Shown here in pieces: positions 18,423 to 32,607 of a stretch of 37,042 bases of DNA. Source of the stretch: a virus (Duplodnaviria; Heunggongvirae; Uroviricota; Caudoviricetes); IMG/VR virus record IMGVR_UViG_2558860170_000002; one strand, 5' to 3'. Below the pieces are notes generated by a model that was not told where the DNA came from, ran no database searches, and was given only the letters and a program-made list of their open reading frames with translations. Position 1 is the first letter of the stretch. Each line of letters opens with the position of its first letter. A program made the translations under genes and the position numbers.

Positions 18423-21074
18423 ATGAGTGATATTTTCTCAGGAAGAGAATTATCAGTACAGTATAATGCTGATATTGGTAACAGAACACCACAGGGAGCA
18501 GGCAATGTAGTAATTAAACAGATTAATACTTTTCCAACCTTAACAATAAATTCAGAAGCAAATAATTTTGAAACGTATGATAGTGATTACAGGACAGTAC
18601 TACTATCTGATAAATCAGTAGCACCATTTGATATTGTAGTTAACTACCTACCTGATGATCCTACACATCAATTCTTGGATAATGCCGCTAAGTCTCAGCA
18701 GCTTTTCCAGATCATCATTCAGTACCAGATGAATAAGGATGAAAATACCATTACTTATGCGATGGTGAATGGTTATATCACCTCTTATAAGTTGGACGGT
18801 GATAAAGGTTCAGTAGTAACCAAGGCATACAGTTTTGCCCCACATGATGTGATCGCACGTGCAATGACCATTAACGCACTATCGCCAATCTATCAGGGGG
18901 ACTACGGTTTAGGTTCGAACACTACGGATGTACCTCAGTACTCACCATCAGTACCTACGGGTAACAGCTTCATCAAAGTACCATCATCTCAAGCAGGCAA
19001 TCCTGCCGGGGCGGATCTGATGGGAGTAGGGCTTGTAGATGGCACTACTGTAAGTTCTCTTGCGATGACAAAGACGGGTACTCTAAGTATCTATGCAAAG
19101 AACGCTACAACCGCCTGGACACGCATATATACCGCTACACAGATGGACGGGCGATACGTACCCCTTACACGTACCATCAACGGCCATGCACTCACGGCCA
19201 ATTTAGTACTGAACAGTGAAGATACAGGTTCAGTACCTGATACACGTACTGTGAATGGTAAGCCTCTAAGTGAGGATGTAGTACTTACCAGTACTGATAC
19301 CGGCTCTGTACCAGATACACGGACAGTTAATGGTCATGTACTCAGTGAAGATATAGTACTGAGTAGTGAAGATACAGGTTCAGTACCTGACACGCGTACA
19401 GTGAACGGTCATGTACTTAGTGAAAATGTAGTACTGAGTAGTGAAGATACAGGTTCAGTACCTGATACACGTATGGTCAACGGTCATGTACTCAGTGAGG
19501 ATGTAGTACTTACCAGTACTGATGTTGGCTTAGGGAAGGTTACAGATGATGCCCAGCTTACGATAGCAGGTAATCTAAGTGATCTGGGGGACGTGGAAGA
19601 AGCACGTATTAACCTTGCTGTTTACTCAATGGATGAAGTAGATGCAGAGGTAACGGCTTTAGCTGACAGTATTACTTCCCTTGATTCCGCTTCCATGAAG
19701 AAAGCGAGTAACCTTTCTGATCTATCCAGTCTCTCTACAGCACGTACTAACCTACAGGTGAACCGTTTGACTCAGGGTGCTACGTACACCGATCTGATGA
19801 GTAATGACCTGACTAACCGTATCCGAATTCAGGATAACGGGGCATGGGGTGCAAGTACTGGTACTGGATGGATTGCTTTAGGTATAGGTCAGGGGGGGAC
19901 AGGGGCTACAGATGCTTTGAGTGCTCGCCTAAACTTTCAGGTGGATCGCTTTAATCAAGGTAGTAATTTAACAACTATTAAATCCGCTGATTCTTCCGCT
20001 GCATTAGTGGTTTATGATGGAGGGCAATGGGGTTCAGCTACATATATTGCGGGTGCTTTCACTGGCTGGAAAGCATTAGCAATTCCGCAGGGCGGTACTG
20101 GTGTTAAGACTCAGGCTGAGTTATGGCCTGCGATTCGTCCTACGGGTGCAACTTCTTTAGCAGGAGATCCTGTCTCTGATTCTGACGCGACTACCAAACG
20201 CTGGGTTGAAAACTTGCTGAGTAGTCGTACTTCAGTTAGTCCTCAATGGGATGTTATTGCTTCTTCCCCTTCCTCTACGGCAATTGGTAGTTATGTAACT
20301 GGAGGGCGTATTCGTTCGATATGCAACATTGGTACATCAACTGAAATATCTGGTGGTTTTCGGGTTGGTAAAACGATGGGACAGACTGGACAGGCTGATC
20401 TCACCCTTTTTATTTCTGAAAATGGTGCAGAGGATAAACTATGGGGGCTAAAAGGGCCGACTGGAACGATCCTAACTGATGTTCAATCAGGATGGATGAC
20501 TAATACCGCTGTTTCGGGACCGACAGATGCCAATACCATCACCTTTAACGGTATGTATGCAGGGCCAGGTGACTCAGGTATTAACTATAGTGAAAAATAT
20601 TCCCCTTTATTGCACATGCAAAGATACCCAGGGGCAAATCGCTCTCAGCTTCAGATAGACGGTGGTGGTACTTTAAGAGTACGAGGCGGGAACGGTACAA
20701 CATGGTTTGGATGGTTAGTAATGCAAGCTCAAGGTACATCAGGTCGTGAGTTTAAAAGAGACATAACTCCAGCAAATCCAGTTGAAGCATTAGATCGGAT
20801 AATGTCACAAGATTTAGTAACGTTTATCTACAAGGATGATGAACAAGAAAGGGTTAGGTTTGGTGTTATCGCCGAAGATGCTGAGTTGACTGCTCCGCAG
20901 TACATTAAGCATGATGAAGAAACAGTTGAAATAGAAGGGGAGATTGTCACTCGTGATCATCCACGTGTTGATTTAAATCCAATAGTGATGGACTTGATGG
21001 GAGCTATTCAAGCCCAACAAGAAGAAATTAATCAGCTAAAAGATTTAGTACAACAGCTATTAAATAATAAATAA
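18423..21074 (+). CDS. tail fibre-like protein: major-tail-protein-like N-terminal domain, 25-aa tandem repeats, C-terminal intramolecular chaperone (peptidase S74-like) domain
   Basis: N-terminal about 150 aa is paralogous to the product of 21133-21606 (shared DIFSG...NTF...VNYLPDD..HQ.L). Five 25-aa repeats (TRTVNGHVLSEDVVLSSEDTGSVPD). The C-terminus SGREFKRDITP...ERVRFGVIAEDAE...NPIVMDLMGAIQAQQEEINQLK matches the S74 pattern SDxRxK...GxIAQE...coiled coil. Confidence 0.55.
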   Translation: MSDIFSGRELSVQYNADIGNRTPQGAGNVVIKQINTFPTLTINSEANNFETYDSDYRTVLLSDKSVAPFDIVVNYLPDDPTHQFLDNAAKSQQLFQIIIQYQMNKDENTITYAMVNGYITSYKLDGDKGSVVTKAYSFAPHDVIARAMTINALSPIYQGDYGLGSNTTDVPQYSPSVPTGNSFIKVPSSQAGNPAGADLMGVGLVDGTTVSSLAMTKTGTLSIYAKNATTAWTRIYTATQMDGRYVPLTRTINGHALTANLVLNSEDTGSVPDTRTVNGKPLSEDVVLTSTDTGSVPDTRTVNGHVLSEDIVLSSEDTGSVPDTRTVNGHVLSENVVLSSEDTGSVPDTRMVNGHVLSEDVVLTSTDVGLGKVTDDAQLTIAGNLSDLGDVEEARINLAVYSMDEVDAEVTALADSITSLDSASMKKASNLSDLSSLSTARTNLQVNRLTQGATYTDLMSNDLTNRIRIQDNGAWGASTGTGWIALGIGQGGTGATDALSARLNFQVDRFNQGSNLTTIKSADSSAALVVYDGGQWGSATYIAGAFTGWKALAIPQGGTGVKTQAELWPAIRPTGATSLAGDPVSDSDATTKRWVENLLSSRTSVSPQWDVIASSPSSTAIGSYVTGGRIRSICNIGTSTEISGGFRVGKTMGQTGQADLTLFISENGAEDKLWGLKGPTGTILTDVQSGWMTNTAVSGPTDANTITFNGMYAGPGDSGINYSEKYSPLLHMQRYPGANRSQLQIDGGGTLRVRGGNGTTWFGWLVMQAQGTSGREFKRDITPANPVEALDRIMSQDLVTFIYKDDEQERVRFGVIAEDAELTAPQYIKHDEETVEIEGEIVTRDHPRVDLNPIVMDLMGAIQAQQEEINQLKDLVQQLLNNK
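19167..19529 (+). repeat. 75-bp tandem repeat, about 4.8 copies, in frame within the tail fibre-like gene
   Basis: Unit boundaries read directly at 19167, 19242, 19317, 19392 and 19467; the units are closely similar. Confidence 0.8.
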
Positions 21075-21132
21075 ATATAAACGGGGTGAACGGATTCACT
21101 CCAATAAAATTTTCTTATAAGGATATAAAACT

Positions 21133-21606
21133 ATGGCTATGGATATTTTTTCCGGTGCTAACCTTACTGTAGAAGTAGGTTCAAGTGCTGGTAAAACAGT
21201 TGCTACTGACTTTGTAGAAGTACCAGAGGTAAACACCTTCAGTACTTCAGGCTTTGAAAGTACTGTAATTAGCGTAAAAACATTCAATAATGCTTATGAT
21301 CGTAAGCTATTGGGTACTAAGTCAATCCCGGACATTTCTCTTGCAGTTAACTACTTACCAGATAATGCAGTACATCAGAATTTAGAACAACTTGCAGACG
21401 ATCAGAAACGTTGTCAGGTAAAACTAAGCTATTTTACCGATGCAACTAAAAAAGAAGGTTTCTTTGTAATTTATACCTGCTTTGTTTCAAGTACCACTAT
21501 CGGTGGTGATAAAGATGAAGTAGTAACTAAGACTTTCACCCTTGCAGTTGATGGTGAAGCAATTGATTCAGGTCTGATTACTCCAAAACCAGAATCGGGC
21601 GAATAA
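21133..21606 (+). CDS. putative major tail protein (157 aa)
   Basis: Sits immediately upstream of the chaperone and tape-measure genes and is followed by a strong terminator. Paralogous to the N-terminus of 18423-21074. Confidence 0.5.
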   Translation: MAMDIFSGANLTVEVGSSAGKTVATDFVEVPEVNTFSTSGFESTVISVKTFNNAYDRKLLGTKSIPDISLAVNYLPDNAVHQNLEQLADDQKRCQVKLSYFTDATKKEGFFVIYTCFVSSTTIGGDKDEVVTKTFTLAVDGEAIDSGLITPKPESGE

Positions 21607-21614
21607 TAATAAAT

Positions 21615-21647
21615 AAAGGGAAGGTGCTCAACTTTCCCTTTTTTATT
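21615..21647 (+). terminator. rho-independent terminator
   Basis: AAAGGGA...TCCCTTT stem followed by TTTTTTATT, directly after the major tail protein stop codon. Confidence 0.55.
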
Positions 21648-21957
21648 GGAGATGAAAATGAATTTAAACGAATTGAAGAAAAAACTACAACCAGAATTAA
21701 AACCACATGAAGTAATGGGTGAAATCATCTTTATTCATCGTCCAAATGGTCAGGATTTCCAGAAATGCACTGATGTGGCTAAAACTCTAATCCTATGTGT
21801 AAAAGATGAAAATGGTGATCCTATCTTCGCAGAAGAAGATATTGATGGACGAATTAATGTTAACTCTATTGATTTTGTAATCCAGAATGAAATTTACTCA
21901 GCAATTATTGCTTTAATCAATACTGCGAAACCTGTAGATGAAGTAGAAAAAAAGTAA
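21646..21957 (+). CDS. putative tail assembly chaperone
   Basis: Small acidic protein between the major tail and tape-measure genes; assigned by position. Confidence 0.35.
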   Translation: MEMKMNLNELKKKLQPELKPHEVMGEIIFIHRPNGQDFQKCTDVAKTLILCVKDENGDPIFAEEDIDGRINVNSIDFVIQNEIYSAIIALINTAKPVDEVEKK

Positions 21958-21989
21958 GAGGTGATATCGAATTAAAGTACTTTTGTAAG

Positions 21990-22352
21990 ATGGTTAACAA
22001 AAGAGGCTTATCACCTGAAGAATACTTTAGTTTAGATCCTGATGTACTCAATATGCTTATGATCTACGATACTTTTATAGAACCATCCGGTACGCAGATT
22101 GAAATGATGAAACATGCGTACCAGTGTTACTACACCACTATCAGTAATGGCAACCTAACACCAGAAGCAAGGAAAAGTATCAAGGTACAGGATTTTGATT
22201 TTCTTGATGTGCTTAGTGATAGTACTAAGAGTACTTCAGAGAAAGCTGAAGAAAGAAAATTAAAAACTAAAGAGGCTCAATCCAATGATATTAAATCTAT
22301 AGGGGAGTTAATTAAATCTCAGGTATTAGGAAAGAAAAAGAATGGCAAATAA
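21990..22352 (+). CDS. putative tail assembly chaperone / hypothetical
   Basis: Assigned by position upstream of the tape measure gene. Confidence 0.3.
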   Translation: MVNKRGLSPEEYFSLDPDVLNMLMIYDTFIEPSGTQIEMMKHAYQCYYTTISNGNLTPEARKSIKVQDFDFLDVLSDSTKSTSEKAEERKLKTKEAQSNDIKSIGELIKSQVLGKKKNGK

Positions 22353-24555
22353 TAATAGAATACGTGTAGATATTACGGGTGATTCTTCCGGTTTACAGCG
22401 TGCTTTAAGGTCTGGTACTGAATCATTAGAGGAATTTGGTAGTACTGCTGGTGGCATTGTTGAAGAGTTCACAGGCCGAATAACTGGTATGGCTGGCGGG
22501 TTCGGTACTGCTATGACCGGGATCGCGGGTGCTGCGGCTATTGGTATTGGTGGCCTGGCAGCATTAGTAGAATCATCACGTGAATATGTGCGTGAAATGA
22601 ACCAGATCAGTAAGAGTACCGGATTGTCCGTGGTTCAGTTACAACAGCTATCAGCGGCGTTTAGTGGCCTCGGTCTTGAGATTGATAAGTTTGGTGATTT
22701 CAACAAGGATACCTTGGATAAGCTCGGTGATGCTTTTCGTGCTGGCGGTGGTGTATCCGATGATCTTAAAGAATATGGACTCAACCTACAGGACTATAAC
22801 AAGTACTTAAAACAGGCTGATGGTGGTATGCAGGCTGTGATCCACACCTTTTACGCCATGCGTGATGCAGGTAAATCACAGAGTGAAATAGTTAACGTAA
22901 TGGAAACGTTAGCCAGTGACTCAAGCCACATGATTAGTACTCTTCAGCAGTTCAATAATGAGGCTCAAGCTACAGCCTATATCCAGTCACAAAATGCTGA
23001 AGTAACTAATGATGCTGCTGAAAAATATGCTGAATTCGATAAAAACCTTGGGAAACTTACTACCAGCATTAAAGGTACTATTGCTGATGGCCTATCACCT
23101 TTAGTTAATGCCATGAACAGTGTCTATGATGCTGCAAATCAAAAACCTCACGAGGCAGGTTTGTTTGAAGATCTGAATGAACGTATTAAAACTTCCAAGG
23201 GTTCTCTACAGGATATGTTGGATATCTGGGAAAAATTACGTACAGCAGGGGCATTAAACTACCAGGGTGCAGCACTCAATACTGGCATCATGGATGATAA
23301 GGGCAACAAGGGTAATGAGTTCGCTCAGGCTAAGGCACGTTTAGAAGAACTGGCAAACAACCTAAAGTCCGATGTTGCGGTTGCTACCGCTCCTACTGGC
23401 GGATGGGTTGATCAGGCAAAAGAAGCTGAAGATGCAGCGAAGAAGTTAGAACAACAACGTAAACAGGCAGAAGCGGCACAAAAGGCGGCAGATGCAAAAC
23501 GCCTACAGGCTCAACGTAATCTGGAAGCTGCTCTTGCTCAAGTTGGGGAAGATGGTTTTCAGGTACGTCTACAGCAGTTCGACAGACAACAAAAGGCACT
23601 TCTTAAAACCATCACCGATAGTGCTCAAGTACTCGGTATCAATCCTGATGAAATGCTAAAGAACGCTACTGCATATGGTGCTAAACAACGTACTGATTTA
23701 CTGAATTCAATGGTTGGTTATCAAGATCCTAATCAGGGTCTGAAAGATACCAATGCTCTTATTGGTTCCGGTCTACTCAATGACAATCAGAAGGGGTATC
23801 TGGCACAGCAACAGAATCAGCGTATCAATGGTGGTAATCCATTAGCCTATAACGATACCGATCAGAAGTTGAAAGATAACGCTGATGCTATGAATGCTGA
23901 ACTTCAGCAGAATGAGTTGTTGCTGAAAGGCCATGAGGACTATGAGAAACGTAAAGCTGAGATCACGGCAAAGTACAATGCACAGGCCATCCAAATCAGT
24001 AACCAGAATGCACAGGATCAGTTAAGTATCTTCTCAAGTACTGCACAGTCACTATCACAGGGCATGGTTGATGCGTTTGGGGAAAGTAGTGGGGCTGCAC
24101 AAGCTGCATTTACCCTAAGTAAGAGCATAAGCATTGCACAGACAGTACTTTCAATTCAGTCAGCATTGGCCCAAGCACTCGCTACCCCTTGGCCAGCTTC
24201 ATTGGCAAACTATGCACAAGTACTTTCACTTGGTATGTCGATTATTAGTACTGCAAAGGGTGCTGCTGCTGGTCAGTTCCATGGCGGGGTAGATGAACTA
24301 CCAGCAAGTTATGACAACAAATCATTTGTACTTAAGCAGGGCGAGAGAGTGGTGCAGCCTGAAGCGAATAAGAAATTAACAGCATTCTTGGATAAACAAG
24401 AAGGTGGAAGTACTTCAGGTGATATTACCGTTAACGCACCATTGATCATCCAGGGTGATGTAGCTGATGATGACAAGAAATTTAATGAGATGCTTAAGAA
24501 ACACGCCAATAGTGTTTCTCAAGCTGTGAGAAGTAGTCAAAAACGTAATACATAA
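22342..24555 (+). CDS. tail tape measure protein
   Basis: 737 aa, Ala/Gln-rich with long coiled-coil segments and Gly-rich hydrophobic stretches, in the canonical position. Confidence 0.7.
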   Translation: MANNNRIRVDITGDSSGLQRALRSGTESLEEFGSTAGGIVEEFTGRITGMAGGFGTAMTGIAGAAAIGIGGLAALVESSREYVREMNQISKSTGLSVVQLQQLSAAFSGLGLEIDKFGDFNKDTLDKLGDAFRAGGGVSDDLKEYGLNLQDYNKYLKQADGGMQAVIHTFYAMRDAGKSQSEIVNVMETLASDSSHMISTLQQFNNEAQATAYIQSQNAEVTNDAAEKYAEFDKNLGKLTTSIKGTIADGLSPLVNAMNSVYDAANQKPHEAGLFEDLNERIKTSKGSLQDMLDIWEKLRTAGALNYQGAALNTGIMDDKGNKGNEFAQAKARLEELANNLKSDVAVATAPTGGWVDQAKEAEDAAKKLEQQRKQAEAAQKAADAKRLQAQRNLEAALAQVGEDGFQVRLQQFDRQQKALLKTITDSAQVLGINPDEMLKNATAYGAKQRTDLLNSMVGYQDPNQGLKDTNALIGSGLLNDNQKGYLAQQQNQRINGGNPLAYNDTDQKLKDNADAMNAELQQNELLLKGHEDYEKRKAEITAKYNAQAIQISNQNAQDQLSIFSSTAQSLSQGMVDAFGESSGAAQAAFTLSKSISIAQTVLSIQSALAQALATPWPASLANYAQVLSLGMSIISTAKGAAAGQFHGGVDELPASYDNKSFVLKQGERVVQPEANKKLTAFLDKQEGGSTSGDITVNAPLIIQGDVADDDKKFNEMLKKHANSVSQAVRSSQKRNT

Positions 24556-24565
24556 GAAAGCCCAG

Positions 24566-25138
24566 TTAGGGATTTTCCGTGTGATAAGACAAATATTGTG
24601 AAAGAGAAGATGAAAGGGTATAGAGATTGTAATACTCTTCCCGCAATAATTTAACTTTAGGTGGTGAGTATTTAATATTGTATGCAAGCTGTGTTGAAAG
24701 AGTACGTAATCTCGATAATGAATAATAACTCTTTACGATGGCATCTACTTCTTTTTTTGGGAGTGATGCTAATTTTTCTAATTGGGAATAATATACATCA
24801 TCATGCAAATAAGAAACGGCAGTTGCTACTCTTTTAATAGCTTCTGTATCTTCAGTTGGAAGAGGAATACATATTTCATATGTGCCTAACACCTGAGACT
24901 CATCGCCACCAGTAGCAAGAGCTAAAAGGTTATTGTTGATTTCGCTCAATAAGATTACACGCATCTTAAAAACATCATCTGAACTTTCTTTCCATTTATC
25001 ATATGCGTTATAGCCTATTTGGCCTGCAAATAACAACATAGCAACGATGACGGATGCAGCCTGCCAATCAAGCCTGTTAAAAAAAATACGAATCGAGGTT
25101 TTTAAATAAATAAAGAAAGAAGATATTCGAGGTAACAA
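24566..25138 (-). CDS. hypothetical membrane-associated protein on the opposite strand within the tail module
   Basis: One hydrophobic helix (AASVIVAMLLFAGQIGY). GTAC-poor and AT-rich, unlike its neighbours. The start may be an internal Met. Confidence 0.4.
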   Translation of the reverse strand: MLPRISSFFIYLKTSIRIFFNRLDWQAASVIVAMLLFAGQIGYNAYDKWKESSDDVFKMRVILLSEINNNLLALATGGDESQVLGTYEICIPLPTEDTEAIKRVATAVSYLHDDVYYSQLEKLASLPKKEVDAIVKSYYSLSRLRTLSTQLAYNIKYSPPKVKLLREEYYNLYTLSSSLSQYLSYHTENP

Positions 25139-25139
25139 A

Positions 25140-25697
25140 ATGGCATCCTTTTCAAATCAAATAAAAGTAACGAACTTTCAAATTAAAAGTACTGAACCGA
25201 TCTATTCTAATCAAACATGGACAGGTCAACGTATCATGAGAAGTACTGGAATTCAATACTATCAAATTCAGTTCACCCTTAATTTTAATCCTGCATCACT
25301 AAATGAAGTGAATAGCTTTTTAGCTCAATATGCACAGGGCAAACCTTTCACTATGTCATTGGGGCTTGCAGGTACATATTACGGTAAACAGACTGGTGCA
25401 GTAACCGCTACTGCTCTCACTAAACCGGGTAATATGGTTGTACCTATCAGTACTAACACATTAGCTGTGGGTGAGTGGGTACAGTTTTCCAATCACAATA
25501 AGCTATATCGAATCGTAGAACGTACCAGTACTTCAATTACTATTTTCCCTGCTCTACAAAATACAGTACAGGCAAGTGAAGCACTCAAATATAACAATCT
25601 CATGATCGAGGCTGTATTAGATCCAGACAATGATTATTCATTGCCTATTGGGAACATCATGAATATTACATTGAAAGCAACGGAGAATATCATCTAA
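25140..25697 (+). CDS. minor tail protein (distal tail / gpM-like position)
   Basis: Directly downstream of the tape measure region; assigned by position. Confidence 0.4.
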   Translation: MASFSNQIKVTNFQIKSTEPIYSNQTWTGQRIMRSTGIQYYQIQFTLNFNPASLNEVNSFLAQYAQGKPFTMSLGLAGTYYGKQTGAVTATALTKPGNMVVPISTNTLAVGEWVQFSNHNKLYRIVERTSTSITIFPALQNTVQASEALKYNNLMIEAVLDPDNDYSLPIGNIMNITLKATENII

Positions 25698-26320: not shown

Positions 26321-27229
<909 letters not shown>

Positions 27230-27320
27230 TAGACTGGCCCCCTGAATCTCCAGACAACCAGTATCACTTAAATAAGTGATAGTCTTAATACTAGTTTTTA
27301 GACTAGTCATTGGAGTACAG

Positions 27321-27686
27321 ATGATTGATGTCTTAGGGCCGGAGAAACGCAGACGGCGTACCACACAGGAAAAGATCGCAATTGTTCAGCAGAGCTTTGA
27401 ACCGGGGATGACGGTCTCCCTCGTTGCCCGGCAACATGGTGTAGCAGCCAGCCAGTTATTTCTCTGGCGTAAGCAATACCAGGAAGGAAGTCTTACTGCT
27501 GTCGCCGCCGGAGAACAGGTTGTTCCTGCCTCTGAACTTGCTGCCGCCATGAAGCAGATTAAAGAACTCCAGCGCCTGCTCGGCAAGAAAACGATGGAAA
27601 ATGAACTCCTCAAAGAAGCCGTTGAATATGGACGGGCAAAAAAGTGGATAGCGCACGCGCCCTTATTGCCCGGGGATGGGGAGTAA
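27321..27686 (+). CDS. insC: IS2 OrfA (InsC)
   Basis: Identical translation to copy A. Confidence 0.85.
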
Positions 27687-28549
27687 GCTTAGTCAGCCGT
27701 TGTCTCCGGGTGTCGCGTGCGCAGTTGCACGTCATTCTCAGACGAACCGATGACTGGATGGATGGCCGCCGCAGTCGTCACACTGATGATACGGATGTGC
27801 TTCTCCGTATACACCATGTTATCGGAGAGCTGCCCACGTATGGTTATCGTCGGGTATGGGCGCTGCTTCGCAGACAGGCAGAACTTGATGGTATGCCTGC
27901 GATCAATGCCAAACGTGTTTACCGGATCATGCGCCAGAATGCGCTGTTGCTTGAGCGAAAACCTGCTGTACCGCCATCGAAACGGGCACATACAGGCAGA
28001 GTGGCCGTGAAAGAAAGCAATCAGCGATGGTGCTCTGACGGGTTCGAGTTCTGCTGTGATAACGGAGAGAGACTGCGTGTCACGTTCGCGCTGGACTGCT
28101 GTGATCGTGAGGCACTGCACTGGGCGGTGACTACCGGCGGCTTCAACAGTGAAACAGTACAGGACGTCATGCTGGGAGCGGTGGAACGCCGCTTCGGCAA
28201 CGATCTTCCGTCGTCTCCAGTGGAGTGGCTGACGGATAATGGTTCATGCTACCGGGCTAATGAAACACGCCAGTTCGCCCGGATGTTGGGACTTGAACCG
28301 AAGAACACGGCGGTGCGGAGTCCGGAGAGTAACGGAATAGCAGAGAGCTTCGTGAAAACGATAAAGCGTGACTACATCAGTATCATGCCCAAACCAGACG
28401 GGTTAACGGCAGCAAAGAACCTTGCAGAGGCGTTCGAGCATTATAACGAATGGCATCCGCATAGTGCGCTGGGTTATCGCTCGCCACGGGAATATCTGCG
28501 GCAGCGGGCTTGTAATGGGTTAAGTGATAACAGATGTCTGGAAATATAG
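27644..28549 (+). CDS. insD: IS2 transposase OrfB (InsD)
   Basis: Identical translation to copy A. Confidence 0.9.
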
Positions 28550-28565
28550 GGGCAAATCCAGTGGT

Positions 28566-30872
28566 GACTATACGAGTACTAAAACTCTTGCTGCAAAATA
28601 TGCTGGTTCGAAATGGACAAATAAATTTCTTGGTAAGGGTATTGTTAGTATCAGTACCGTTATCTTAAAAACTCAAGATTCATTAGAAAATAATATTCTT
28701 GTTAATGATCAATTCGCTTTAACTGTAGAAATGAAAGGGCAGGTGATTTATGATTTTGTTGATGGTACTTATAAAGCAAGTAGTAACCCTCCTTCAATTA
28801 TCTATGATTACTTAACAAATTCAATCTATGGTATGGGTATTGATCCATCATTGATTAATACCGATACGTTTGCAGAAACCGCAGCATATTGTGATGCTTT
28901 TGAATATTATGCTAATGGTGCTATCAGTTATCAAAAAACCTATAAAGATAATATTGAAAATATCTGTCAGTCATTTGGCGGCATCATGTATGTACATGCC
29001 GGACAAATCTGTATTACCACAGACCGCAAATCGGTATCCGTAGCCTCATTTGATGAGCGTAACATGGTAGGGGCGGTACAGGTTTCTACTTCTGGCGGTA
29101 CTGACTACTTCAACGTAGTCGATTGCAAGTTTACTAACCCTGAATCGATGTACACCACTGACGTAGTACGTATCCCTTCCGATATCACTACGGATGAAGC
29201 AGTACAGCATGATGGACAGGTCATAGCATTATCACGCGATTACTCATGGTCATATGATCAAGAGGTGATTGCAAAAATGGCTAACGTTGATGTACTCAAG
29301 GCTAAGTATGCCCTGCGTACTATCAGCTTCACCACAAGTGAAGGTTGGGATCTCGAAGTATGGGATGCGATCAATGTCAGCAATGAAGAACTCGCTATCT
29401 CAGGCAAATTTAAAGTACTCAATAAAGATATCAGCACCGATCAAGAGAACGTTGGCTATGTAACCATCACGGCAGTAGAAGCACCTGATGCAATGTATGA
29501 TGGTATTGATCCGGGTATCTGGTCGCCTGGTGGGGTAATTAACTTCCCTGAACTACAGGTACTACCGCCAACGAACCTACAGGCAGTACGTAAGGGGAAT
29601 ACTACTTCTGGTTCAATCGTGGATCTTACCTGGGATGCTTCACCAGATCCGTATCTGCGTGGGTACTATGTTTACTACCGTCTTAACGGTTCCAGTACCT
29701 GGACGTATGCGGGGCAGACTGGCGTACAGAAGCTTGATTATGAATTATTTGGATTGTCTGATACTGCAAGCTACGACTTTTCGGTAGAGGCTTACAACAA
29801 CTTAGGGCTGGTATCCAAGAAGCTTTCCCTAACTGGCATTGTTCCAACATTCAACTTTGCACTACCTGCGGTAACGCGTGTAGTACTGACAAATAAAACA
29901 GAATCAGCGTATGTAACTGACTCACCAGATTTCAATATTGCCTGGGATTCACAAAAAGATATCAGAGTGAATAACCGATCATTTAGTGAGTACTTCAAGT
30001 ATTACGTTATTAAAATCTATGACGGTACTAAATTAGTAGATACATTCTATACGCAAAGTAATGCCTTTAATTTCACTCTTGAAATGAACCGTCTGAAAGT
30101 ACGTAAGCCTACCATTGGTATTATCGCACAGGGATTTAATGATGGTACATATTCAGAGGAAGTGAAAATAACCGTAGAGAATAAACAGTGTGGTTTAGTA
30201 GAGGATGTTAGCTTTACGGGTGGTTTTGGTAATTTGTTTGCTTCATGGACTAAATCTACTGAACGTGATTATGCAGGTGCGATTATCAGTATTGTTAATG
30301 GTACTAATACACGTATATTCACCAGTTATGCACCTGAATTTGATTCAATACCAAACATCACTGATGGTGAGTATAAGGTTAAGATGGGATTCTTTGATGT
30401 GTTTGGTACTGATGATATTCAATATTGTCCAGAACAAACAATCAGTATCAACTCCAAGTACCAGTTTACCGAAGATGATGCAGAGGCAATTAACGGGATT
30501 CTTGATTTAGAAGATCGCCTGACTGGTACCATTAATGATGCGGTCAAAATTGCCAATAAGAATACCAGTACTGTTATCAGTGCATCAGAGGCACGTACCA
30601 ATGATAAAATCACTGCCAGTGAGAAAACGTTAAGTACTCAGATCACTGGGGTAAATAGTTCCTTATCACAGAAACTTAGCACCGTTGAAAGTACTGCCAA
30701 TGGTAACAAGGCCAGTATCCAGACACTATCCCAGACGGTAACGGATAACAACAAAGCTCAGACTACAGCAGTCTCACAGCTACGTAGTGATGTGAATGGA
30801 CAGATTGCCACTGTTAACCAGTCAATGAGTACTAAAGCCGATAAATCTACTGTAGATGCTCAGTACTCACTA
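28566..30872 (+). pseudogene. J-like host-specificity protein, central portion
   Basis: About 769 aa with a fibronectin-III-like segment (LTWDASPDPYLRGYYVYYRLNGSSTWTY) and a Ser/Thr-rich C-terminal region. The stop codon is supplied by the IS911 terminus at 30873. Confidence 0.6.
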
Positions 30873-30880
30873 TGAAGTGG

Positions 30881-32049
<1,169 letters not shown>

Positions 32050-32076
32050 TGGAGCACCTGTGTTGTTCTGAGGTGA

Positions 32077-32607
<531 letters not shown>

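What the first reader, a model, noticed from the sequence alone, without database searches (positions are those of the whole stretch)
18423..21074. Tail-tube-like domain fused to a repeat-containing fibre with a self-cleaving chaperone
The 883-aa protein begins with a domain paralogous to the adjacent 157-aa putative major tail protein. It continues with five 25-aa repeats and ends with a domain matching the intramolecular chaperone of T5 L-shaped fibres and endosialidase tailspikes (S74; Ser-x4-Lys dyad at SGREFK). A fibre anchored through a tube-protein domain would decorate the tail shaft rather than the baseplate. It may be an auxiliary adhesin.
Basis: partly seen in the sequence, partly recalled or inferred. 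Interest (0 to 1): 0.55.

Follow-up and report, generated by a model that had tools for sequence, protein, structure and literature searches.

The report
Tail fibre fused to tube-protein paralog
A broken prophage of the Shigella sonnei type encodes a tail fibre whose first 145 residues are a diverged copy of the phage's own tail-tube protein; a whole uncultured phage lineage keeps this layout, which suggests the fibre is anchored by being built into the tube, a way of attaching side fibres not yet described.

Summary
ORF 18423-21074 (+) encodes 883 aa.

- **Repeats:** five 25-aa repeats occupy residues 249-373.
- **Chaperone:** the C-terminus is a Peptidase_S74 intramolecular chaperone with a Ser773/Lys778 dyad.

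New findings:

- The fusion is not an accident of this decayed, IS-riddled prophage. About 100 protein clusters and 80 of 80 IMG/VR loci share the same 250-residue N-terminal module on interchangeable fibre ends.
- That module is the tube-like domain plus a strongly conserved 100-aa beta domain with no known relative.
- Wherever flanks could be read, the gene sits between a separate tail terminator and the real tube gene.

Most likely it is a side fibre anchored as its own ring in the tube, giving two trimers per hexameric ring. Whether that ring sits at the tip junction (as T5 p140 does), under the neck, or scattered along the shaft cannot be decided here. I rate it a new variant of known side-fibre anchoring. 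No cultured or imaged member exists.

The parts
18423..21074 (+). Whole gene: 883-aa tail fibre with a tube-protein-like N-terminus (stop codon included)
   Evidence: ORF list. PHROG tail-fibre families at 1e-34 to 1e-37 plus phrog_158 major tail protein on residues 2-150. An intact 920-aa orthologue lies in the same synteny in a Buttiauxella genome.
18423..18857 (+). Residues 1-145: tail-tube-protein (TTP) paralog domain
18858..19160 (+). Residues 146-246: conserved linker plus beta domain ('D2', motif GDYGLGSN; five strands and a short helix), with no known relative
   Evidence: Invariant or nearly invariant G159, G162, G164, P171, G180, N181, G219, N227, W232. More conserved between loci than the tube-like domain (84 vs 59%, 72 vs 42%, 55 vs 40%). 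pLDDT is about 90 for residues 181-230. No significant Pfam, PDB or NCBIfam match. No hhalign similarity to lambda Stf N-terminus or a T5 p132 fragment.
19167..19541 (+). Residues 249-373: five tandem 25-aa fibre repeats (TRTVNGHVLSEDVVLSSEDTGSVPD)
   Evidence: TRF period 75 nt, 4.2 copies, score 371. Repeat starts listed. PHROG tail-fibre hits cover residues 244-344. The Buttiauxella orthologue aligns with fewer such units over this stretch.
19542..20738 (+). Residues 374-772: fibre shaft and distal, presumably receptor-binding, part
   Evidence: tblastn matches to lateral tail fibres of T5-like phages (DT57C/DT571 LtfB), Dhillonvirus and Drexlerviridae. Best is 47% over residues 576-883. This part is replaced in orthologues: no match for residues 576-772 in any related locus tested.
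20739..21071 (+). Residues 773-883: S74 intramolecular chaperone. Predicted self-cleavage between Thr772 and Ser773; Lys778 is the general base.
   Evidence: PF13884 above its gathering score. 8hqz_d domain E 6.8e-32. Dyad positions. Mechanism by analogy with T5 pb1 Thr1263/Ser1264/Lys1269 (PMC4690869). Cleavage itself is inferred, not shown.
21133..21606 (+). The phage's real tail tube protein (157 aa)
   Evidence: PF08813 34 bits (cut-off 24.2) and phrog_158 5.8e-19. It is followed by a terminator-like hairpin at 21615-21641. It is the slowest-evolving tail protein of the lineage (mean p-distance 0.33).
18013..18405 (+). Separate tail terminator protein (130 aa), immediately upstream of the fibre gene
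17688..18011 (+). gpFII-like head-tail joining protein (107 aa)
   Evidence: PF05354 Phage_attach E 3e-4 (below cut-off) and phrog_82 head closure E 0.0044. This is a weak assignment.
21646..24555 (+). Tail assembly chaperone pair (103 and 120 aa) and tape measure protein (737 aa)
   Evidence: phrog_344 and PF16459 hits for the 103-aa product. phrog_13674 tape measure 5.4e-86. The 120-aa ORF is assigned by position only.
25140..25697 (+). Distal tail protein (185 aa), the ring on which the tube is normally initiated
   Evidence: phrog_1302 distal tail protein 7.9e-17.

Best explanation
The gene encodes a structural side fibre of a lineage of small (about 30-36 kb) temperate siphophages of Enterobacterales.

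Shown:
- Residues 1-145 are a diverged paralog of the phage's own tail tube protein.
- Residues 146-246 are a second, very conserved anchor domain.
- The rest is a modular fibre: 25-aa repeats, shaft, exchangeable tip. It ends in an S74 intramolecular chaperone carrying a Ser773/Lys778 dyad.

Inferred:
- The chaperone drives trimerisation from the C-terminus and then cuts itself off at Thr772/Ser773.
- Each mature trimer carries three tube-type domains.
- Two trimers supply the six subunits of one ring, which is built in line with the tube. The fibre is therefore covalently part of the tube wall rather than clamped on by a collar.
- The distal part binds a surface polysaccharide or protein and speeds adsorption, while the J-like central fibre triggers infection.

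I slightly favour a single dedicated ring at the tube-tip junction, where T5 places its tube paralog p140. The position is unresolved.

In this particular genome the prophage is defective, so the gene is probably a silent remnant.
For: Paralogy and fold:
- Sequence paralogy with the TTP.
- The alignment is gapless over the whole tube fold, including the shared N-terminal DIFSG motif and VNYLPD.

Family and synteny:
- A separate terminator and a separate Dit exist, so the domain replaces neither.
- 141 representatives share residues 1-250, with total lengths mostly 560-1563 aa. 40 of 55 carry S74; others carry different fibre ends.
- 80 of 80 IMG/VR loci keep the tube-like domain and D2 in one ORF. 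In 71 a separate TTP gene follows.
- Synteny is identical in genome and metagenome loci from E. coli, Buttiauxella and unnamed metagenome contigs.
- Conserved anchor plus swapped distal parts is the usual signature of a receptor-binding fibre.

Chaperone and precedent:
- S74 and the dyad (PMC4690869).
- Precedent for a tube paralog forming one ring that carries the side-fibre apparatus: T5 p140 (PMC10038345).
Against: - No virion of this lineage has been imaged. No multimer prediction could be run, so ring formation, stoichiometry and position are all inferred.
- The gene lies on the neck side of the TTP gene (terminator-fibre-TTP). T5 p140 lies on the tip side (terminator-pb6-p140-chaperones).
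- In an exploratory distance-correlation test over 43 loci, the tube-like domain and D2 tracked FII, the terminator and the assembly chaperone rather than Dit (partial Spearman +0.24, +0.13, +0.39 versus -0.19). This leans weakly toward a head-proximal place, but it is confounded by linkage and by evolutionary rate.
- The tube-like domain evolves faster than the TTP (mean p-distance 0.54 vs 0.33).
- No Pfam tube-protein family matches it at E up to 0.1.
- A hexamer feeding two trimers is geometrically plausible but untested.
Confidence: 0.6

Rival explanations
1. Neck fibres. The tube-like ring is the last, head-proximal ring, sitting directly under the terminator hexamer. The two fibres then radiate from the neck like a collar or whisker structure. 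They serve for first, reversible contact rather than for positioning the tip.
For: - The gene order is FII-like, terminator, fibre, TTP in every locus. Tail genes are usually ordered from head to tip.
- Exploratory covariation places the tube-like domain and D2 with FII and the terminator, not with Dit.
- The paralog lies on the opposite side of the TTP gene from T5 p140.
Against: - The covariation is confounded by adjacency and rate.
- A tandem duplicate can land on either side of its parent gene.
- About 530 residues of fibre cannot reach the tip of a tail measured by a 737-aa tape protein.
- The distal part is homologous to tip-anchored lateral fibres of T5-like phages and Dhillonvirus.
- No mechanism is evident that would reserve the last ring for the paralog.
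Confidence: 0.27
2. Shaft decoration. The fusion protein co-polymerises with the tube protein at many positions, so fibres protrude along the whole tail. This would resemble SPP1 gp17.1* or Ig-decorated tube proteins, but with full trimeric fibres.
For: - The whole tube fold and the motifs shared with the TTP are retained.
- The ribosome-binding context AAGGATATAAA is identical in front of both genes, so expression need not be low.
- Tube proteins with C-terminal extensions are known (BFVD hits with FN3 or Ig extensions; SPP1 and lambda in PMC7666168 and PMC8718954).
Against: - Known extensions are small monomeric domains on the tube protein itself. Here there is a separate, faster-evolving paralog with a dedicated second anchor domain, which fits a specialised single-site ring better.
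- A pre-trimerised fibre must insert three adjacent subunits at once.
- No phage with long fibres all along a siphovirus tail has this gene.
Confidence: 0.18
3. The tube-like domain is not part of the tube wall. It docks elsewhere (for example on the outside of Dit or the hub), or it acts only during assembly, with D2 as the true anchor.
For: - D2 is more conserved than the tube-like domain.
- No Pfam tube family recognises the N-domain.
Against: - The two domains are never found apart (80 of 80 loci).
Confidence: 0.08
4. Artefact of decay. In this IS-riddled prophage, a deletion or frameshift fused a tube pseudogene to a fibre gene.
For: The prophage is defective. Identical IS copies split the terminase and J-like genes. 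Relatives show truncations at the domain junction.
Against: The same fusion, with the same start (M-S/A-D-I-F), occurs in about 100 clusters at 50% identity and in all 80 viral contigs. These include apparently intact 30-36 kb genomes.
Confidence: 0.01

Closest known systems
Phage T5 / DT57C side-fibre apparatus: p140 (TTMP) ring + p132 (LtfC) collar + pb1 (LtfA/LtfB) fibre
   Same: - The fibre ends in the same S74 chaperone. Residues 767-878 match DT57C LtfB at E 6.8e-32.
   Different: - In T5 these are three separate proteins: a bare p140 ring, a dodecameric Ig-like collar, and a fibre whose first ~50 residues thread into the collar. Here tube domain and fibre are one chain, and no p132-like sequence is detectable (fragment only).
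- T5 p140 is a double-domain trimer; this is a single-domain paralog.
- The gene lies on the other side of the TTP gene.
- The two duplications are most likely independent.
Ur-lambda side tail fibre Stf (N-terminal collar domain)
   Same: The fibre protein carries its own N-terminal anchor domain. Several anchor domains per trimer are joined to the shaft by linkers, which resolves a 3-fold/6-fold mismatch (PMC12617516).
   Different: Lambda uses 12 Ig-like domains that wrap around the outside of the gpV-gpM junction. Here the anchor has the tube fold itself. There is no hhalign similarity between D2 and Stf residues 1-120.
Tube proteins with C-terminal decorations (lambda gpV Ig domain, SPP1 gp17.1* FN3 domain, lactococcal tail-protein extensions)
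   Same: A tube-fold domain is followed by an outward-facing adhesion module (PMC7666168, PMC8718954, PMC6669499).
   Different: Those extensions are small, monomeric and sit on the major tube protein or its frameshift product. Here a separate paralog carries a ~740-residue trimeric fibre with a self-cleaving chaperone.
S74 intramolecular-chaperone fibres and spikes (K1F endosialidase, T5 pb1, phi29 gp12)
   Same: A C-terminal chaperone domain with Ser/Lys at S-x4-K, followed by a coiled coil (PMC4690869).
   Different: None is known to have a tube-protein domain at the N-terminus. NCBI names a family member only 'pyocin knob domain-containing S74 family peptidase'.
Lateral tail fibres of Dhillonvirus and Drexlerviridae
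   Same: The distal 300-450 residues are homologous, at roughly 24-58% identity.
   Different: Those genes lie downstream of J or among replication genes and are not adjacent to the tube gene. The N-terminal 166 residues of the window protein find nothing in them.

Membership tests
Peptidase_S74 intramolecular chaperone (self-cleaving fibre/spike C-terminus) | Profile match above the curated threshold at the C-terminus | tested here: met
   PF13884 34.1 bits versus cut-off 22, residues 774-822. 8hqz_d domain E 6.8e-32.
Peptidase_S74 intramolecular chaperone (self-cleaving fibre/spike C-terminus) | Catalytic Ser and Lys five residues apart at the start of the domain | tested here: met
   Ser773 and Lys778 in GT-SGREFK. 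This aligns with SGIEYK of DT57C LtfB and has the same spacing as T5 Ser1264/Lys1269 (PMC4690869).
Peptidase_S74 intramolecular chaperone (self-cleaving fibre/spike C-terminus) | Autoproteolytic release of the chaperone after trimerisation | not testable with these tools
   Needs mass spectrometry or an S773A mutant.
Siphophage tail tube protein (TTP) fold | Sequence homology to a bona fide tube protein | tested here: met
   E 3e-21 to the adjacent TTP. phrog_158 1.3e-16.
Siphophage tail tube protein (TTP) fold | Tube-protein three-dimensional fold | tested here: met
   [not shown]
Siphophage tail tube protein (TTP) fold | Match to a curated Pfam tube-protein family | tested here: not met
   No Pfam TTP family hits the 883-aa protein at E up to 0.1, nor any of 55 members at 0.001. 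The adjacent TTP does hit PF08813.
Siphophage tail tube protein (TTP) fold | Assembles into hexameric rings that stack in the tail | not testable with these tools
T5 p140-type tube paralog ring (TTMP) anchoring side fibres | Tube-protein duplicate encoded next to the tube gene | tested here: met
   but on the opposite side of the tube gene from T5 p140.
T5 p140-type tube paralog ring (TTMP) anchoring side fibres | Undecorated ring surrounded by a separate Ig-like collar protein that holds the fibre | tested here: not met
   The fibre is fused directly to the tube-like domain. D2 shows no similarity to a T5 p132 fragment. No extra small gene lies between terminator and TTP.
T5 p140-type tube paralog ring (TTMP) anchoring side fibres | Located between the last tube ring and Dit | not testable with these tools
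   Position unknown. The covariation test was inconclusive.
Lambda Stf-type collar-anchored side fibre | N-terminal Ig-like collar domain homologous to Stf residues 1-94 | tested here: not met
   hhalign probability 0.1%. The N-terminus has the tube fold instead.
Tail terminator protein | Terminator (gpU-like) fold and role as the only terminator in the module | tested here: not met
   [not shown]

The most novel reading that the evidence does not exclude
[quoted passage not shown] The tube wall and the adhesin are then one polypeptide. The ring's place (tip junction, neck or shaft) would be set by a paralog-specific interface and by the unknown, highly conserved D2 domain.
Probability: 0.5. 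Interest if true: 0.7.

Novelty: new variant of a known kind. Interest (0 to 1): 0.6.

Why it matters
How side fibres are fastened to siphophage tails has only recently been solved for a handful of systems. These are the T5 collar, the Ur-lambda collar, monocin Dit and the F-pyocin central fibre, summarised in PMC13455828. A fibre covalently continuous with a tube ring is not among them.

If confirmed, it would:
- add a simple solution to the 6-fold/3-fold mismatch;
- show a second, independent use of tube-gene duplication for fibre anchoring;
- give engineers a compact 250-residue handle for mounting foreign receptor-binding modules on a tail.

It also corrects annotation. Pfam and NCBIfam miss the tube domain, so these genes are named only as S74 peptidases or left as hypothetical proteins. 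RBP-classification pipelines may discard proteins with tube-protein hits as false positives, as one did.

The lineage is common. A terminator orthologue is on record in 316 blocks of the assembly collection (the loci read are E. coli genomes), and 115 IMG/VR contigs carry the anchor. It nevertheless has no cultured, imaged member.

Tried and rejected
- **Terminator substitute.** Rejected. The upstream 130-aa protein models as a terminator, and the N-domain matches tube proteins better.
- **Fusion as a decay artefact.** Rejected.
- **Identity of D2.** A profile search of PDB gave only insignificant hits (best a bulb-type lectin, E 0.046, with its sugar-binding motif not conserved). Pfam, NCBIfam and hhalign against lambda Stf N-terminus and a T5 p132 fragment all found nothing.
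- **Word-indexed homologue search with the N-terminus.** It returned only six fragments. The exhaustive HMMER search was needed to see the family.
- **Cultured relatives.** There is no near-DNA match in INPHARED phages or in complete E. coli genomes. The only phage record with the N-domain is PQ671644 'DCP80', which looks chimeric.
- **Mirror-tree covariation to place the ring.** The first run mixed up the paralog and the TTP and was redone. The final result leans weakly to the neck side, but linkage and rate differences confound it. I do not treat it as evidence of position.
- **Literature searches.** Searches for a tube-fibre fusion or a second tube protein found no description.
Full report
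**Observation**

The ORF at 18423-21074 (+) is real: ATG start, 883 aa, with an AAGGA ribosome-binding site 8 nt upstream.

- Residues 1-139 align with the product of 21133-21606 at 31% identity, with two gaps, E 3e-21.
- Both proteins hit PHROG 158, 'major tail protein'. The 157-aa protein passes Pfam PF08813.
- A 75-nt tandem repeat (4.2 copies, score 371) lies at 19204-19518. It corresponds to five 25-residue units starting at residues 249, 274, 299, 324 and 349.
- The C-terminus passes the Peptidase_S74 gathering score. It matches the solved DT57C LtfB chain 8hqz_d with a domain E-value of 6.8e-32.
- The SGREFK motif places Ser773 and Lys778 at the same spacing as the scissile Ser1264 and Lys1269 of T5 pb1 (PMC4690869).

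**Surroundings**

The window is a prophage. It matches Shigella sonnei proteins exactly: the first 479 residues of the fibre (a 622-aa allele) and the whole upstream 130-aa protein.

The structural genes run in this order:

1. large terminase
2. a 176-aa protein in the gpW position
3. lambda-type portal
4. a protease-capsid fusion
5. a gpFII-like 107-aa protein
6. a 130-aa protein
7. the fibre
8. the tube protein
9. two chaperone ORFs
10. tape measure protein
11. Dit
12. three small tip proteins
13. a J-like central fibre

The copy is defective. Two identical 1331-bp IS3-family elements, in inverted orientation at 11001-12331 and 27230-28560, split the terminase and the J-like gene. Two more IS elements lie elsewhere in the window. 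The fibre ORF itself is intact.

**The two flanking tail proteins**

**The N-terminal anchor**

An AF2 model of residues 1-262, built on 56 family sequences, has mean pLDDT 80.5.

- *Comparison with the cognate tube protein.* The alignment is gapless over the whole fold and keeps the N-terminal DIFSG and the VNYLPD motifs. Both domains are acidic.
- *The second domain (D2).* Behind the tube-like domain lies a 40-residue glycine/proline-rich linker and a five-stranded beta domain with a short helix, together residues 146-246. D2 has invariant G162, G164, G180, N181 and G219. It is more conserved between loci than the tube-like domain (84 vs 59%, 72 vs 42%, 55 vs 40%).
- *No known relative for D2.* It has no significant match in Pfam, PDB sequences or NCBIfam. 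hhalign shows no similarity to the lambda Stf collar domain or a T5 p132 fragment.

**The family**

An exhaustive HMMER search with residues 1-250 found 141 representatives of 50%-identity clusters. About 100 of them align from residue 1 to 250 and are 560-1563 aa long.

- Of 55 members scanned, 40 end in Peptidase_S74. Others carry Phage_tail_C_2, Gp34_trimer or Collar domains. None hits a Pfam tube family.
- A pattern scan of IMG/VR found 115 contigs, mostly 20-36 kb.
- In all 80 loci returned, the tube-like domain and D2 lie in one ORF. A separate tube gene follows in 71. A terminator precedes in 62, using an HMM built only from close homologues.
- The same order was seen in genome and metagenome loci from E. 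coli and Buttiauxella and from unnamed metagenome contigs, and in a short Enterobacter contig up to the truncated fibre gene.
- Between orthologues the first ~250 residues are kept. The repeats vary in number and the distal part is replaced. Residues 576-772 have no match in any related locus tested.

This pattern, a conserved anchor with an exchangeable tip, is typical of receptor-binding fibres. The invariant presence and position argue that the protein is a core part of the tail.

**Distal homologies**

Residues 396-883 resemble lateral tail fibres of T5-like phages (LtfB), Dhillonvirus and Drexlerviridae. In those cultured phages the genes lie after J or among replication genes. The N-terminal 166 residues of the window protein find nothing in those records. 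Apart from one record, no cultured phage has the anchor, and only a few have even a distant relative of this tube protein. The exception, PQ671644 'DCP80', joins such a module to T4-like genes and carries two inverted rIIA copies. It is probably a chimeric assembly.

**Mechanism**

*Shown:* the domain composition, the family, the synteny and the catalytic dyad.

*Inferred:*

1. The S74 domain trimerises the chain and cleaves at Thr772/Ser773, as in T5 pb1 and K1F endosialidase.
2. Each trimer then carries three tube-fold domains on ~40-residue linkers.
3. Two trimers make one six-membered ring that stacks coaxially with tube rings.
4. The fibre is therefore anchored by being part of the tube.

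*Known anchoring modes.* The solved modes all differ from this one:

| System | Side-fibre anchor | Source |
|---|---|---|
| T5 | bare tube-paralog ring (p140) plus a p132 collar | PMC10038345 |
| Ur-lambda | twelve Stf N-terminal domains around the gpV-gpM junction | PMC12617516 |
| Monocin | a Dit domain | reviewed in PMC13455828 |
| F-pyocin | the central fibre | PMC13455828 |

None of my literature searches found a tube-fibre fusion.

**Where the ring sits**

This is unresolved.

- *For the tip junction:* the T5 precedent, and the functional need for side fibres to reach the cell together with the central fibre.
- *For the neck:* the gene order terminator-fibre-TTP. This is the opposite side from T5 p140, whose order is terminator-pb6-p140-chaperones. 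There is also a weak, confounded covariation signal over 43 loci. The tube-like domain and D2 follow FII, the terminator and the assembly chaperone rather than Dit, whereas the true tube protein follows Dit and the next tip protein.
- *Against the shaft:* the existence of a dedicated, faster-evolving paralog with its own second anchor domain.

I put the in-line ring model at about 0.6 overall. Within it I rank tip junction slightly ahead of neck, and both ahead of shaft.

**Verdict**

This is a new variant of a known kind: side-fibre anchoring through a tube-gene duplicate. It belongs to a sizeable but uncultured phage lineage and is missed by current annotation. The copy in this window lies in a dead prophage. 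Interest 0.6.

Noticed in passing
window 11001-12331 and 27230-28560: Two 100% identical 1331-bp IS3-family elements (136-aa and 301-aa transposase ORFs) lie in inverted orientation. They split the large terminase (10598-11041 + 12372-13832) and the J-like central fibre (26717-27232 + 28524-30875), so the prophage is defective.
   Followed up: yes
window 5300-7269 (-) and 30881-32085 (-): An IS21-family istA/istB pair and a second, different IS3-family element sit in G+C-rich islands (0.51-0.54, against about 0.38 for the prophage).
   Followed up: partly
L002 10001-10540, L003 6473-6901, L005 8528-9082: In two different relatives the fibre gene is cut by a stop just after the tube-like domain (residue ~136-143). 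The contigs then end within about 20-130 nt, as if a repeated element (IS?) sat at the domain junction. The downstream reading frame in L002 looks like a transposase start, but this was not verified.
   Followed up: partly
protein P0007 (Shigella sonnei allele of the window gene): This allele is identical to the window protein through residue 479. It then carries a 55-residue tandem duplication and ends at 622 aa, so fibre length and integrity vary between S. sonnei strains.
   Followed up: partly
window 18858-19160 (residues 146-246 of the fibre): The second anchor domain is more conserved across the lineage than the tube-like domain, and about as conserved as the real tube protein. It has no detectable relative in Pfam, PDB or NCBIfam, and its partner is unknown.
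   Followed up: partly
window 18410-18420 and 21119-21129: The same 11-nt ribosome-binding context, AAGGATATAAA, precedes both the fibre gene and the tube gene. This fits a tandem duplication origin or matched translation.
   Followed up: no
window 24566-25138 (-): A 190-aa ORF on the opposite strand lies between the tape measure and Dit genes, with no family match. E. coli relatives carry a 209-aa DUF6216 gene on the minus strand at the same place, a typical moron position.
   Followed up: no
L001/L011 (GenBank PQ671644, 'Escherichia phage DCP80'): This record is filed as a T4-like Gaprivervirus (141 kb). It begins with a siphophage structural module of this lineage and has two inverted copies of rIIA, so it is probably a chimeric assembly. 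Its tube-like fibre (698 aa) is followed by a second fibre gene (745 aa) before the tube gene.
   Followed up: partly
window 15830-17674: The prohead protease (Peptidase_S78) and the major capsid protein (Phage_capsid) are encoded as one 614-aa ORF that overlaps the end of the portal gene. The fusion is kept in most relatives seen; in some E. coli loci this region is split.
   Followed up: no
L012-L015 (E. coli genomes), locus positions 2073-3876: In the E. coli copies of this prophage that were inspected, the large terminase is called as two overlapping ORFs (139 + 471 aa) in three of the four loci shown and is not called in the fourth. This could be a shared frameshift, meaning a defective copy, or a recoding site.
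   Followed up: no
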